64,000 nucleotides of DNA, from the NCBI RefSeq assembly GCF_003019035.1, contig NZ_CP027448.1; one strand, 5' to 3'. A program made the position numbers and the translations under genes. Below are positions 30,396 through 34,077 of the stretch, piece after piece (position 1 is the first letter of the stretch; each line of letters opens with the position of its first letter). The DNA comes from Escherichia coli. Its GTDB lineage: Bacteria; Pseudomonadota; Gammaproteobacteria; Enterobacterales; Enterobacteriaceae. Under the pieces are notes generated by a model that worked only from the letters and a program-made list of their open reading frames with translations, was not told the DNA's origin and did not search any database.

Positions 30396-31399
30396 AACAG
30401 AAGAAAGACACGGGGAGGGAAACAATCCTTTCACAGTGTTCATTCGCTTTTATATCCATCCAGTTTACTTGTTTTCTCGTGTATGCCACAGGCGCAATAC
30501 ATAGACAGTCTGGCCAGTAAGTTCATAACGGATTTCGTATTCACCTGCCAAAATCCGTCTGACCTTCCCGGGTTCAAAACTGAAATAACTGTTCCTCCAT
30601 GCGTGGATGAGTTAACAAAATGGCCGGAACCTGTATCAGGTGTCAACGCCACGATGTTTGACCGTTACCGTCTTATATCACTGGCGCTGACACAGGAACT
30701 GCACCGTTCTGGTGGTGGCAGGTAATGGTACATGCGCAGTAAGCACTTTTGTTGCTTGTGCTGTATTTTTTTTCATTTTTACATCCGATTAGTTGTTAAT
30801 CATAGTGATTATATTCAGACGAAACAGGGCAAATAATGCGCGTCAGCGCATGTAAGGCGGCATACGGTGGTTACATGTAGCACAGGTGTAAAACCGCCGA
30901 AGCCCGGCGTAAGCCGGTACTGATTGATAGATTTCACCTTACCCATCCCCAGCCCTGCCAGACTATACTCGCTTTCAGCCATGACAGAGCTTCTGTGCGC
31001 GGTCGGAGTGGTCCCGACAAGGGTTTACCCGCAGTCGGGGCGTATCTCCGCGTTAGCGGGCCGTTAGGGCCGCTTACGAGCGTGTACTTCAAATCTTCCA
31101 GCCAGAAGACTGGCAGCGATGATAATGTAGTTACAACATTCATAATTAAAAGCGACTCTGTTCCGGCCCTTTGGGCCGGGGCGGGGCCGCTTTTCAGTTA
31201 TGAGGGGGGGCTTTGTGGTTTCAGTTCTGCGCGGGACCGGGTTTTTTTGGTGGTTGTATCTGAGTGTTGTAACTAAAGTAGCTCCGGTCGGGGCCCGCCG
31301 CTTGCGGTGGGAGGTGCATATCTGTCTGTCCAAAGGACAGGCAATGAATAGGTTTTCTTTTTAAATGAATGTAGTTAAGTAGTTTAAAGGAGATATAAA

Positions 31400-31620
31400 T
31401 AGGTGTTTAAAAGATACATTGCACCCTGTAAGGCTGGCGGATGGCGCTTTATGACATGAACGGTTGTAACCTTATGAGGAAGTCCCTTGCAGTTAAATGT
31501 GGATAAGCAAAATTCCTCGTCTGTGAGGCGTGTTTTGTATCAAAAACAGGAGGGACCGGATGCACCTGAAGGTGGATGATGAGGTTGTTTTTTGTATGCG
31601 GTGCTGTTTTTTTGTTCGCC
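31400..31620 (-). other. RepFIIA origin region (oriR), approximate, with DnaA box
   Basis: DnaA box TGTGGATAA at 31498-31506, about 180 bp downstream of repA1, as expected for R100/R1-type origins. Confidence 0.5.
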
Positions 31621-31681
31621 GACAGGCTTCAGGCGTGCAGATGCCTCCGGTGCGGGCCAGATTATTCTGAGGAGGTCACTT

Positions 31682-32539
31682 TCAGGGAGAAGCTGTGGCC
31701 AGCCGGCTGTAATTACGGTTACGTGACAGAATCATGCGCTCTTTCACACGACGCTCCACTTCGCGTTTTACCGCCTCACGATTGGCAGTGAAGCGCCCTT
31801 CCGAGATTTCACGCGTCAGCTGCCGTTTCACCAGGGTGACGATATCCTGACGTTCCCTGTTCGCATCACGACGCGCACGGGCACGCTTTATTCCACGGGA
31901 CTTAAGCTCTGTCTGGTAACTGCGGAAATGCTCACGCACAAAACGCCAGGCTTTCGCTATCAGTTCATCCATACCCAGGGTATCCAGTCCCTGCTTTTTG
32001 CGCTGTCTGTTTTCCCATTCAACACGACTGCGGCGCGCAGCAACCACTGCATCCTCAGACACATCAAGGGCGGCAAATAGCGCCGGTGTGAACGTGATAT
32101 TGGTCGGAATGTAGCACCCGATAAGCGGATCATATTCCGTCTGGTAGGTAATCAGTCCCAGCTCTGCAAGGAACGTCAAGGCTCGGGTGGCCCGGGTGAT
32201 GGAGAGTTTTCCGGCAGCAGACTCCGTCGCCAGTCCGCACTCAATGGCCAGCGTAGTGATGGAGCACTGGACGCGGTTGGCCAGCGGGTCATAGTGAAAA
32301 CACAGCCCCTGCAGCAGCGCATCAATAGCCCGGCGACGCAGTACCGGTGGCATGCGCCGACGCAGTCCCTTCGAACGGGCATGTGCCACATGAATGGCGA
32401 AATCAAAACGGGAGGTGAAGTCCACCGCCTTTTCCATCAGTTTTTCGCAGAACTTCAGCGTTCCGGCACCTTCACGGGGTGTGAATACCGGATTCGGGTT
32501 CTTTACCTGGCGGTAATACGTTTGTTGAAGATCAGTCAC
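31682..32539 (-). CDS. repA1: RepA1 replication initiator (IncFII/RepFIIA)
   Basis: Protein matches R100/R1 RepA1 as recalled ([39 protein letters not shown]...[14 protein letters not shown]); GTG start at 32539 overlaps the tap stop. The ORF track extends to 32551. Confidence 0.9.
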
Positions 32540-32606
32540 ACCATCCTGCACTTACAATGCGCAGAAGGAGTGAGCACAGAAAGAAGTCTTGAACTTTTCC
32601 GGGCAT
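32532..32606 (-). CDS. tap: tap leader peptide (translational coupling to repA1)
   Basis: Manual translation gives the 24-aa peptide [24 protein letters not shown], with its stop overlapping the repA1 GTG. Confidence 0.8.
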
Positions 32607-32617
32607 ATAACTATACT
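32589..32617 (+). promoter_or_regulatory. Candidate copA promoter (TTGAAC-17 bp-TATACT)
   Basis: Near-consensus sigma70 -35/-10 on the plus strand, about 85 nt upstream of the terminator at 32657-32708. Confidence 0.5.
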
Positions 32618-32623
32618 CCCCGC

Positions 32624-32708
32624 ATAGCTGAATTGTTGGCTATACGGTTTTTAGATGGCCCCGGTAATCTTTCATGTCGCCAAACTTGAAGAAGATTATC
32701 GGGGTTTT
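32624..32708 (+). ncRNA. copA: CopA antisense RNA (copy-number control), approximate ends
   Basis: Antisense to the repA1 leader upstream of tap; ends in a 14-bp stem (CCCCGGUAAUCUUU...GAAGAUUAUCGGGG) plus UUUU. Confidence 0.55.
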
Positions 32709-32838
32709 CACTTTTCTGGCTCCTGTAAATCCACATCAGAACCGGTTCCCTGCCACCTTATGGCGTGGCCAGCCACAAAATTCCTTAAACGATCAGCAAT
32801 CTATCACTCACGCCTGAGATAAGCAATAATGTGAATAT

Positions 32839-33096
32839 TCACATTATTGCTCTGCGTTTCAGCTCTGATTCAATCAGTTTTTCAAGCATCTGCGCCTGGG
32901 TAATACCTTCCTCATCTGCCAGTTCACTCAGCCTGTCTTTTAAACGGGCCTGGATAACCGCATGAAAAGCCTTATGAGTGTTGCTTCTGCGAGCCAGAGA
33001 AGCCCTTTGCCTCTCTCTGGCCGGAACAGGGTTACCTTTCCGGTATGCACGCTTGTTACCTGATGAGGAAGTCACTGCATTTTCTGTCTGCGACAT
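32839..33096 (-). CDS. copB: CopB (RepA2) repressor of the repA1 promoter
   Basis: 85-aa protein MSQTENAV... matching R100 RepA2 in sequence and position. Confidence 0.85.
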
Positions 33097-33263
33097 CTCG
33101 CCTCCTCAATACTTAAACAGGGATCATTTCGCAGAGGATACTACAGTTTTTTGAAATCAGCGACTTGAGAATTGTGACAAAGATCTGTGTTGGCGCACAA
33201 ATCAACGGGGATTACTGTCGTTTAATGTGATTTAAACTGTGAAATAGTATGGTTTTCAGTTAT

Positions 33264-33339
33264 GGAAACGCCGGGAGCGGAGAAAACTTGCTTTTTCCCG
33301 TTTCCGGGGTTGGACAACTGAGCAACGCGAAGGCGTCAG
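33264..33339. repeat. Conserved ~75-bp hairpin-containing element, copy 1
   Basis: GGAAACGCCGGG...hairpin...TTTCCGGGGTTGGACAACTGAGCAACGCGAAGGCGTCAG; second copy at 46086-46158. Confidence 0.7.
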
Positions 33340-33926
33340 CTACGATGTTCAGGTGGCTGCTGATCAGCCCCTGTTGTATTCAGCCATTCGCCGGTCATCT
33401 GCAGCAGTTTTCTGGCATCGTGGCTTCTGAGCAACGGTATACCAGCCTGCCTCATAACCTCTTCCAGAAGAATATCCCGGCGTCTGCGTTCCGGTCGTAA
33501 ATGGCTGGCATCATCCAGCTCTACTGCTGCAACAATACTGAACGAACGCCGCTCAACGATAACCACATCAACATGCCACTGGGACACCATCCTGAATAAC
33601 TGCCACCACTGACGTGATCGTGGCCGGATATTCCCGTTCAGCTGGACGATATCAGCGCCCCGTACCTGCGGGCACAGATACCACCGCTTCATATCCACAA
33701 TCCTGAACAACCCTTTCATGAAACTGACCTCTCTTTCTGTCAGCAACGTTTTCTGACGCTGCCAGTATTCACCGCTGACCAGTATTCGCTCAGCTTCACT
33801 GGGGCGTATGCCTGCTGCATGTAACCGTATCAGTGCGGGAGGACAGTTTTTACTCCTCCGGAATATTATCCGGACAGACAAAACAGCTATAATAATAACG
33901 ACTACAATGAAAATAATTAAATTCAT
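33336..33926 (-). CDS. DUF2726-like membrane-anchored protein (putative nuclease fold)
   Basis: N-terminal TM (MNLIIFIVVVIIIAVLSV) then a domain with blocks ...FRIVDMKRWYLCPQV... and ...HVDVVIVERRSFSIVAAVELDD... that I recall as DUF2726-like. Confidence 0.55.
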   Translation of the reverse strand: MNLIIFIVVVIIIAVLSVRIIFRRSKNCPPALIRLHAAGIRPSEAERILVSGEYWQRQKTLLTEREVSFMKGLFRIVDMKRWYLCPQVRGADIVQLNGNIRPRSRQWWQLFRMVSQWHVDVVIVERRSFSIVAAVELDDASHLRPERRRRDILLEEVMRQAGIPLLRSHDARKLLQMTGEWLNTTGADQQPPEHRS

Positions 33927-34077
33927 TATTATGTCCTTAATTACATATGAGTCCAGATGAACGAATGTAGTTTTCACCCGAAGTAAGACTCGCAATATTT
34001 ATCCCATGAATTACCTGAACGTTATCAGAAATACGACAAACCAGATCCGCAACAGATAATTCTGTTGTGATAAGGGG

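What the first reader, a model, noticed from the sequence alone, without database searches (positions are those of the whole stretch)
30740..31380. Hairpin-dense GC-rich non-coding stretch downstream of oriR (candidate primosome site)
In the ~600 bp between the hypothetical genes and the origin there are several GC-rich inverted repeats, for example CCGGCCC-ttt-GGGCCGG at 31164-31179 followed by GCGGGGCCGCTTTT, and another near 31286-31296, with few credible ORFs. F-like replicons carry single-strand initiation sites near oriR; these hairpins are candidates. An sRNA or terminator cluster is the alternative.
Basis: partly seen in the sequence, partly recalled or inferred. Interest (0 to 1): 0.3.

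Follow-up and report, generated by a model that had tools for sequence, protein, structure and literature searches.

The report
Plasmid replication stop and start signals
This non-coding stretch is the already described control region just past the replication origin of an R100/R1-type (IncFII) plasmid, holding two fork-stopping Tus-binding sites and the hairpin-rich DNA where the first new strand is primed, so it is real and functional but ordinary.

Summary
Window 30836-31345 is non-coding, somewhat GC-rich, and folds far better than shuffled sequence (z -4.8 on +, -4.0 on -).

It is the "repA4 region" of an IncFII replicon. repA lies at 31682-32551 (-), CopA RNA at 32624-32713 and the DnaA box at 31498-31506. 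The stretch is about 92-94% identical to R100, and at least 5000 plasmid records match it.

- Ter A: 31257-31279 (+).
- Ter B: 31124-31146 (-).
Both have the GTTGTAACTA core and G6. They correspond to terRL and terRR of R1, which published reviews place between oriR and the leading-strand start.

It is conserved with compensatory changes and is structured specifically on the + strand, the leading-strand template.

Beyond Ter B is a near-invariant hairpin block (30836-31123). R64 (IncI1) shares it at 90% identity. It is the expected location of the primase-only "G site", a single-strand initiation signal, not a PriA primosome site. The exact primer start is unresolved; the best candidate is the invariant CTG at 30955-30957.

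The feature is already known, and interest is low.

The parts
31498..31506 (-). DnaA box TTATCCACA, the upstream edge of minimal oriR. oriR is about 31320-31508, assuming the 188-bp R1 definition, which I recall from memory.
   Evidence: Sequence read directly. Exact 9-mer found at 'down' position 185. Aligned with R100.
31323..31343 (+). Hairpin TGTCTGTCC-AAA-GGACAGGCA at the downstream edge of oriR. It has one T.G pair on the + strand, which is an A.C mismatch on the - strand.
   Evidence: the repeat finder I23; fold; conserved as CCTG.CCTGTGGACAGGC in related loci.
31294..31311 (+). Hairpin CCCGCCGC-TT-GCGGTGGG, the 'another near 31286-31296' of the finding. It varies between relatives while keeping its pairing.
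   Evidence: Fold. The family alignment shows CCCACCGC..GCGGCGGG against CCCATCGC..GCGACGGG.
31257..31279 (+). Ter A (oriR-proximal; terRL of R1): TATCTGAGTGTTGTAACTAAAGT. Its polarity blocks forks moving toward oriR and repA.
   Evidence: It matches E. coli TerB at 18 of 23 positions, including G6 and positions 9-23. It is one of only two GNNNGTTGTAACTA matches in the 64-kb window. It is one arm of inverted repeat I1. It is conserved in nearly all IncFII-family loci. Polarity was calibrated on MG1655 TerB and tus.
31139..31204 (+). Long imperfect hairpin between the Ter sites, with its core at 31148-31194. It is structured specifically on the + strand, the leading-strand template. Its lower stem pairs the complement of Ter B positions 1-8, including C6 at 31141, with 31196-31204.
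   Evidence: RNAalifold predicts 25 pairs on the + strand, 10 of them with compensatory changes. 95.2% of cells are paired against 87.5% in shuffles (0 of 500 reach it) and at most 60% when the partners are slid. There are 110 G.T cells against 7 A.C cells. R64 has it too.
31124..31146 (-). Ter B (oriR-distal; terRR of R1): ATTATGAATGTTGTAACTACATT, read on the - strand. Its polarity blocks forks moving away from repA, that is, the fork that has travelled round the plasmid.
   Evidence: 18 of 23 positions match E. coli TerB, with G6 at 31141. Conserved in the IncFII family and in R64.
31095..31123 (.). Spacer after Ter B with two conserved copies of TCGCTG on the repA-sense strand (CAGCGA on +). 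In this window a + strand CTG lies at 31109-31111.
   Evidence: Family alignments.
30997..31083 (+). Near-invariant double hairpin ('block 1': stems at 31004-31050 and 31051-31079, closed by 30997-31000 with 31080-31083). It is the most conserved part of the module and a candidate core of the G-site ssi.
   Evidence: It is almost invariant in 22 sequences whose RepA is only 73-80% identical to the window's. Its ssDNA folding energy is 5.6 kcal/mol better on the + strand in 21 of 21 loci. It has two conserved G.T pairs on the + strand.
30953..30959 (+). CCCTGCC, with CTG at 30955-30957. In the aligned stretch beyond Ter B (A5), this is the only 5'-CTG-3' invariant in all 22 sequences on the leading-strand template. 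It is the best candidate for the primase start signal. It lies about 365 nt past the assumed end of minimal oriR.
   Evidence: Alignment A5, columns 155-157, invariant. Distance computed from the coordinates. The '~380 bp downstream of oriR' figure for R1 is from memory (Masai & Arai 1989; Bernander et al. 1992).
30836..30917 (+). Three further conserved stems: ATGCGC-GTCA-GCGCAT (30836-30851); GGCGG/CCGCC (30856-30860 with 30894-30898); CCGGC-GTAA-GCCGG (30904-30917). This is the outer end of the conserved module.
   Evidence: Compensatory changes in each stem. Homology with R100 and with R64 ends at about 30839-30845.
30736..30835 (+). Not part of the replicon module. It holds a weak stem plus T-run (30736-30775) after the upstream + strand ORF, then a plasmid-specific junction.
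   Evidence: No homology to R100 here. The fold is weak, z -1.7.

Best explanation
The interval is the cis-acting module that completes the IncFII (R100/R1-type) replicon downstream of oriR. In the literature it is called the repA4 region. It does three things.

1. Two inverted Ter sites bind the host Tus protein and form a miniature fork trap.
- Ter B (31124-31146, -) faces forks moving away from repA. It stops the single productive fork after it has gone round the plasmid, just before it would run into the 5' end of the strand it started from.
- Ter A (31257-31279, +) stops any fork moving back toward oriR. This keeps replication unidirectional.

2. Beyond Ter B, the + strand is the template of the leading strand. 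It carries a series of conserved hairpins (30836-31083) around an invariant CTG (30955-30957). After RepA, DnaA and DnaB open oriR and unwind downstream, this strand is exposed. DnaG primase alone lays down the leading-strand primer there. This is the 'G site', a G4-type single-strand initiation signal.

3. A long + strand-specific hairpin (31139-31204) abuts the non-permissive face of Ter B. It belongs to the same conserved unit, and its own role is not established.

Shown here: sequence identity, conservation, covariation, strand specificity and Ter polarity. Inferred from homology and published work on R1/R100: Tus binding, primase priming and the order of events.
For: Replicon context:
- RepA ORF at 31682-32551 (-).
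- CopA RNA, 97.8 bits.
- DnaA box.
- About 92-94% identity to R100 from the end of repA down to about 30845.
- At least 5000 plasmid records match.

Ter sites:
- They are the only two GNNNGTTGTAACTA matches in the window.
- Each matches E. coli TerB at 18 of 23 positions, including G6.
- They form an inverted pair 118 nt apart.
- They are conserved at the same positions in about 25 diverged replicons.
- Polarity was calibrated on MG1655 TerB, which sits upstream of tus.

Literature:
[quoted passage not shown] Loss of Tus gives rolling-circle replication and instability (PMC10331603; PMC4999828).
- The repA4 region holds the ter sites and is needed for stability. It was essential in a transposon screen of pEC958 (PMC4398462).

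Hairpin module:
- Near-invariant across relatives.
- Covariation is well above the controls.
- G.T pairs outnumber A.C mismatches 110 to 7 and 42 to 5 on the + strand.
- The + strand is more stable in 21 of 21 loci.
- A 370-bp block is 90% identical in IncI1 plasmid R64 although its Rep protein and ori differ.

Non-coding status.
Against: - I could not read the primary papers that define the G site. Its exact position, strand and primer start in this window are therefore inferred.
- Similarity to the phage G4 complementary-strand origin is at chance level.
- The G4-like arrangement seen in R100 and R64, a hairpin followed by TGTA-CTG, is lost in this window (GTACTTC). It is also absent from most diverged relatives.
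- Ter B lies between oriR and the presumed priming site, in the orientation that should block a helicase coming from oriR. The simple model does not explain this.
- The many conserved G.U-type pairs stabilise the inter-Ter hairpin much more as RNA (-42.9 against -30.4 kcal/mol) than as DNA (-19.4 against -17.1). That leaves room for an RNA-level role.
Confidence: 0.85

Rival explanations
1. The inter-Ter hairpin (31139-31204) works at the RNA level. It would be an intrinsic terminator for transcripts on the + strand heading into oriR: an A-tract, a long G.U-containing stem, then UUUU. This would insulate the origin, and Ter A, from incoming transcription. It could be in addition to, or instead of, any single-stranded-DNA role.
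For: - On the + strand it folds into an almost perfect 29-pair RNA hairpin of -42.9 kcal/mol (z -7.6), followed by UUUUCAGUU.
- Five pairs are G.U in most sequences. This stabilises RNA far more than DNA.
- In this window the neighbouring ORFs (30078-30725) are on the + strand and point toward oriR.
Against: - The consensus terminator scan did not call it.
- The U-tract has only 4 U.
- The conserved, covarying lower stem extends past the T-run into Ter B. That is not a terminator feature.
- The hairpin is conserved in R100 and R64. In R100 the next downstream genes run the same way as repA, away from oriR. In R64 the first annotated downstream gene is also on the repA strand.
Confidence: 0.2
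2. One reading: the hairpins are a PriA (phiX174-type) primosome assembly site.
For: The hairpins are stable and conserved. AAGCGG, a hexamer I recall from n' sites, occurs at the 5' side of two hairpins on the repA-sense strand.
Against: - The conserved structure is on the opposite (+) strand.
- The hexamer is not conserved in relatives, which have AAGCGA or AAGCGC.
- From memory, R1 replication does not need the DnaT/PriA primosome, and its leading strand is primed by primase alone (Masai & Arai 1989).
Confidence: 0.04
3. The region encodes a protein (RepA4) or a small regulatory RNA gene.
For: R100 and other plasmids carry a 'repA4' ORF annotation here (PMC2762410). ORFs of 69-93 aa exist in the window.
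Against: - No frame stays open across the region in relatives. The R100 frame is cut short in this window and closes within 9 nt of the Ter B core start in 16 of the 20 diverged relatives.
- One-base indels separate the window from R100.
- There are no Pfam hits and no Rfam hit.
- Conservation stops at 30836-30845, and no conserved promoter was seen at either end.
- The promoter scan is at chance level.
Confidence: 0.04

Closest known systems
terRL / terRR of plasmid R1, and the ter sites in the repA4 region of R100/NR1
   Same: Two inverted Tus-type Ter sites lie just downstream of oriR, between oriR and the leading-strand start. In the R100 alignment the Ter cores are identical base for base. 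The orientation agrees with the published roles.
   Different: Nothing of substance. The flanking bases differ by a few substitutions.
G site of R1/R100 (a primase-dependent, G4-type single-strand initiation signal) and the ssi near the ColIb-P9/R64 origin
   Same: The same homologous DNA, about 94% identical to R100 and 90% to R64 over 370 bp. The hairpins are on the leading-strand template.
   Different: This window lacks the CTG that directly follows hairpin 31051-31079 in R100 and R64. The exact published coordinates could not be checked.
Complementary-strand origin (oric) of phage G4
   Same: The same kind of device is expected: several stable hairpins on single-stranded DNA near a 5'-CTG-3' where DnaG starts a primer.
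   Different: There is no significant sequence similarity. The invariant CTG here sits in a roughly 80-nt unpaired spacer between hairpins, not 3-6 nt after a hairpin.
Inverted Ter pair of plasmid R6K and the Ter/Tus fork trap of the E. coli chromosome
   Same: The same Ter consensus and the same logic: non-permissive faces point inward, so a fork passes the first site and stops at the second.
   Different: Here the trap is about 120 bp wide and sits next to the origin of a unidirectionally replicating plasmid. A conserved hairpin fills the trap.

Membership tests
Tus-binding Ter site | 23-bp consensus with the core GTTGTAACTA at positions 10-19 | tested here: met
   Both sites carry the exact core. 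Each matches E. coli TerB at 18 of 23 positions.
Tus-binding Ter site | G.C pair at position 6, the base that flips into Tus to lock the complex | tested here: met
   G6 is at 31262 (Ter A) and at 31141 on the - strand (Ter B). G6 is kept in all family members.
Tus-binding Ter site | Polar arrangement consistent with a fork trap | tested here: met
   The two sites are inverted, with non-permissive faces pointing inward. Polarity was calibrated on MG1655 TerB and tus. It agrees with the R1 description.
Tus-binding Ter site | Binds Tus and arrests forks | not testable with these tools
   Reported for R1 in the literature. Not measured for this sequence.
G4-type primase-dependent ssi (G site) | Homologous in sequence and position to the R1/R100 region downstream of oriR, beyond the ter sites | tested here: met
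   About 94% identity to R100 over the region. It lies beyond Ter B, as the review describes.
G4-type primase-dependent ssi (G site) | Stable hairpins on the strand that templates the leading strand | tested here: met
   The + strand is favoured in 21 of 21 loci. G.T cells outnumber A.C cells 42 to 5. Covariation is present.
G4-type primase-dependent ssi (G site) | 5'-CTG-3' start signal just 3' of a hairpin | tested here: inconclusive
   An invariant CTG lies at 30955-30957, but 37 nt after the nearest 5' hairpin. The hairpin-adjacent CTG of R100 and R64 is absent here.
G4-type primase-dependent ssi (G site) | Sequence similarity to phage G4 oric | tested here: not met
   The local alignment score is below the shuffle mean. 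Shared 7-mers are at the chance number.
G4-type primase-dependent ssi (G site) | Priming by SSB plus DnaG alone | not testable with these tools
   Known for R1 from memory (Masai & Arai 1989). The paper is not held.
PriA (phiX174-type) primosome assembly site | Hairpin on single-stranded DNA that activates PriA; replication depends on priA and dnaT | not testable with these tools
   Indirect evidence is against it. The structure is on the other strand from the AAGCGG motifs, and those motifs are not conserved.
Intrinsic transcription terminator | GC-rich stem directly followed by a U-run | tested here: inconclusive
   The + strand has a long stem followed by UUUUCAGUU. The consensus scan does not call it.
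Protein-coding gene repA4 | Reading frame conserved among relatives | tested here: not met
   No frame stays open in all loci. There are frameshifting indels against R100 and no Pfam hit.
Any Rfam RNA family | Covariance-model match | tested here: not met
   Within 29000-34000, only CopA and a weak PK-repZ hit near repA, plus a weak chance snoRNA-like hit at 29373-29426. Nothing falls in 30740-31380 at E up to 1.

The most novel reading that the evidence does not exclude
The conserved, + strand-specific hairpin between the Ter sites may be a switch for Ter B. Its lower stem pairs the complement of Ter B positions 1-8, including the locking cytosine C6 (31141), with 31196-31204.

During initiation the leading-strand template is still uncopied when DnaB unwinds from oriR. 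The hairpin could then form, hide C6, prevent the Tus-Ter lock, and let the helicase pass Ter B to expose the priming site.

When the complete replisome returns after a full round, the partner segment has already been copied. C6 is free to lock, and the fork is trapped.

This would explain how a non-permissive Ter site can sit between an origin and its own leading-strand start.
Probability: 0.08. Interest if true: 0.6.

Novelty: already known. Interest (0 to 1): 0.15.

Why it matters
[quoted passage not shown] This module is part of what lets them replicate in one direction and stay stable.

Loss of Tus-Ter function in R1 causes rolling-circle replication and plasmid loss, according to the reviews read.

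For genome annotation the lesson is practical. The roughly 0.9-1.3 kb 'empty' gap after IncFII repA is not spacer. It holds oriR, two Ter sites and a priming signal, and automatic pipelines leave all of it unannotated.

Nothing here changes what is known about the system. The strand-specific hairpin that overlaps Ter B is a small open detail.

Tried and rejected
- Phage G4 origin comparison. Local alignment of the G4 origin (fetched as L002) with both strands scored below the shuffle mean. Shared 7-mers (2 on +, 6 on -) match the roughly 5 expected by chance. I therefore drew no strand inference from G4 'homology blocks'.
- Rfam scan of 29000-34000 at E up to 1: nothing in the interval. Rfam on L003 and L030, run for the inserted element, found only CopA.
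- Consensus promoter and terminator scan: counts at chance, and nothing called in the Ter-hairpin region except a TerB-overlapping -10-like CATAAT that relatives do not conserve.
- Pfam on five ORFs in and beside the interval: no hits.
- Strand inference from wobble counts. Counting G.U against C.A cells in the repA-sense RNAalifold models at first pointed to the repA-sense strand (16 against 5). Refolding on the + strand exposed many more conserved G.T pairs (110 against 7 and 42 against 5), and the energy comparison agreed. I rejected the first impression.
- Primary papers on the G site and repA4 (Jiang 1993; Bernander 1992) are not held. Six literature searches gave no G-site coordinates.
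- CTG at 31109-31111 and the R100-type CTG after hairpin 31051-31079. I considered both as primer starts. Neither is conserved on the + strand across the family, so I kept them only as second choices.
- Viral-contig scan with the invariant 19-mer: six contigs, all plasmid-like or remnants, adding nothing to the mechanism.

Full report
**What the window holds around the finding.** repA is the 289-aa ORF at 31682-32551 on the - strand. Its relatives are annotated "incFII family plasmid replication initiator RepA". The antisense CopA RNA is at 32624-32713 (Rfam, 97.8 bits). The DnaA box TTATCCACA is at 31498-31506 on the - strand.

The interval aligns with R100 (NC_002134) at about 92-94% identity, from the end of repA down to about window 30845. 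Left of that point the two plasmids are unrelated. At least 5000 plasmid records match the region, mostly at 90-95% identity. Most of the listed records have no annotated gene under the match. In R100, and in the closest plasmid p3RM8082, a gap of 0.9-1.3 kb after repA carries no annotation.

**Observation check.**
- The hairpin piece 31140-31205 gives z -7.6 on + and -5.0 on -, with 0 of 200 shuffles as good.
- The 510 nt 30836-31345 give z -4.8 on + and -4.0 on - as single-stranded DNA.
- GC content is 0.51-0.58 against 0.44-0.47 in the flank to the left.
- The ORFs inside have no Pfam match.
- No reading frame across the region stays open in relatives. The R100 "repA4" frame is shortened in this window, and it closes within 9 nt of the Ter B core start in 16 of the 20 diverged relatives.

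The longest inverted repeat in the region, I1, is a pair of Tus-binding Ter sites.
- Ter A is TATCTGAGTGTTGTAACTAAAGT at 31257-31279 (+).
- Ter B is ATTATGAATGTTGTAACTACATT at 31124-31146 (-).

Each matches E. coli TerB (AATAAGTATGTTGTAACTAAAGT, read from MG1655) at 18 of 23 positions, including the G at position 6. They are the only two matches to GNNNGTTGTAACTA in the 64-kb window.

I calibrated polarity on MG1655. TerB reads GTTGTAAC on the + strand directly upstream of tus, and by textbook knowledge it blocks clockwise forks. Forks moving 5'->3' along the strand that reads GTTGTAAC are therefore the ones stopped. It follows that Ter A stops forks moving toward oriR and repA. Ter B stops forks moving away from repA.

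[quoted passage not shown] The clockwise fork replicates the plasmid and stops at terRR. Without Tus, R1 shows rolling-circle replication, multimers and instability (PMC10331603; PMC4999828). In R100-type plasmids the stretch is called the repA4 region. It is said to contain the ter sites, it is needed for stable inheritance, and it scored as essential in a transposon screen of pEC958 (PMC4398462).

**Conservation beyond close relatives.** A search of one genome per species with the RepA protein gave 32 loci. They come from Pantoea, Erwinia, Yersinia, Hafnia, Citrobacter, Klebsiella and others, with RepA mostly 73-80% identical to the window's.
- Both Ter sites are present at the same relative positions in nearly all of them, always with G6.
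- The DNA beyond Ter B is more conserved than the protein. On the repA-sense strand, CACGCyCGTAAGCGGCCCTnACGGCCCGCTAACGCGGAGATACGCCCCGACTGCGG is nearly invariant.
- Further conserved stems follow, out to window 30836.
- IncI1 plasmid R64 has a different initiator and origin, yet it shares a 370-bp block at 90% identity. The block runs from the inter-Ter hairpin through Ter B to the last stem (window 30839-31207). R64 lacks Ter A.

The unit hairpin + Ter B + hairpin block thus behaves as a portable module that works with host proteins.

**Structure and strand.** On the window + strand the inter-Ter hairpin extends to 25 pairs (31139-31204).
- Ten pairs show compensatory changes.
- 95.2% of cells are paired, against 87.5% in column shuffles (0 of 500 shuffles reach it) and at most 60% when partners are slid.
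- There are 110 G.T cells against 7 A.C cells. Five pairs are G.T in most sequences.

For the block beyond Ter B the count is 42 G.T against 5 A.C. The ssDNA energy of the double hairpin 30997-31083 is 5.6 kcal/mol better on the + strand in 21 of 21 loci. An earlier count on repA-sense models had pointed the other way, and the fuller + strand models overturned it.

The + strand is the template of a leading strand that grows away from repA. This is the strand on which the established R1 model needs its priming signal. RepA, DnaA and DnaB open oriR, DnaB unwinds downstream, and primase alone primes at the "G site" about 380-400 bp downstream. This model is from my memory of Masai & Arai 1989 and Bernander et al. 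1992. Neither paper is held.

**Where exactly priming starts is not settled.** The only 5'-CTG-3' invariant on the + strand in the 22-sequence alignment beyond Ter B is CCCTGCC, with CTG at 30955-30957. It lies about 365 nt past the end of a 188-bp oriR counted from the DnaA box, which fits the remembered distance. It sits in a conserved unpaired spacer between stems 30904-30917 and 30997-31083.

The alternative is a start just 3' of hairpin 31051-31079. There R100 and R64 have TGTA-CTG in a G4-like layout, but this window reads GTACTTC and most relatives also lack a CTG. The next + strand CTG in the window is at 31109-31111. Similarity to the phage G4 origin itself is at chance level.

It is real and conserved, but it lies inside the Ter pair. 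By the published map it is therefore not the leading-strand start. Its function is not established.

It could act as an intrinsic terminator for + strand transcripts entering the origin. As RNA it is -42.9 kcal/mol and is followed by UUUU. Against this, the scan does not call it, and its covarying lower stem runs past the T-run into Ter B.

That lower stem pairs the complement of Ter B positions 1-8, including C6. This suggests an untested idea: the hairpin on the uncopied template could let the initiating helicase pass Ter B while the returning replisome is trapped. The idea would also resolve an oddity of the simple model, namely that a non-permissive Ter site lies between oriR and its own priming site.

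**Verdict.** The finding is a correct sighting of a known, functional, non-coding replication module.
- The ssi idea is right in kind, but it names the wrong element and the wrong type: the known signal is primase-only, not a primosome site.
- The Ter sites were missed.
- Novelty: already known.
- Interest: low.

Noticed in passing
window 31454-31476 (+), core GTTGTAAC at 31463-31470: A third Ter-core-like sequence (ACATGAACGGTTGTAACCTTATG) lies inside minimal oriR. It is conserved as CGGTTGTAACCTTATG in almost all IncFII-family loci. It lacks G6, T9 and the T18/A19 of true Ter sites, so it is probably an origin or RepA element rather than a Tus site.
   Followed up: partly
L037 (R64) 1480-2800: IncI1 plasmid R64 shares the hairpin + Ter B + post-Ter B hairpin block at 90% identity over 370 bp. 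It has no counterpart of the oriR-proximal Ter A.
   Followed up: partly
L003 about 3930-4120 and the matching place in L030: Two relatives (Escherichia sp. and Salmonella arizonae) carry a roughly 190-nt insertion directly after Ter B. It has an internal inverted repeat (CAGTTGTCAACCACTGAATCGG ... CGATTCAGAAGTTGACAA). There is no Rfam match, and its nature is unknown.
   Followed up: partly
L009, L015, L031 and other diverged loci, between the oriR-edge hairpin and Ter A: The diverged IncFII-family replicons have an extra conserved hairpin block of about 50 nt (GCCCGCCCTTGCAGCGGACTCACGTCCGCGCCGGTTCGG). The window and R100 lack it.
   Followed up: no
L042 (11540-12170); L043, L039, L044: IMG/VR 'viral' contigs hold the module without an adjacent repA. 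L042 has an IS66 transposase upstream. L043 has cytochrome bd oxidase genes upstream. L043, L039 and L044 all carry a mutated Ter B core (GTTGTAAG). They look like replicon remnants.
   Followed up: partly
window 31095-31123: Two copies of TCGCTG on the repA-sense strand (CAGCGA on +), about 20 nt apart, are conserved right after Ter B in most relatives. They place CTG triplets on the lagging-strand template. Their role is unknown.
   Followed up: no
window 31100-31700: There is a strong positive GC skew on the + strand (0.23-0.40) across oriR and the Ter region. It changes sign inside repA.
   Followed up: no
window 29180-29836 (-) and 30078-30725 (+): Left of the replicon lies a Trans_reg_C-domain protein; the corresponding gene in the closest plasmid, p3RM8082, is annotated as a PsaF/MyfF family fimbrial regulator. 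Next to it are two small + strand ORFs (105 and 80 aa) without Pfam matches that point toward oriR. A weak stem plus T-run follows them at 30736-30775.
   Followed up: partly
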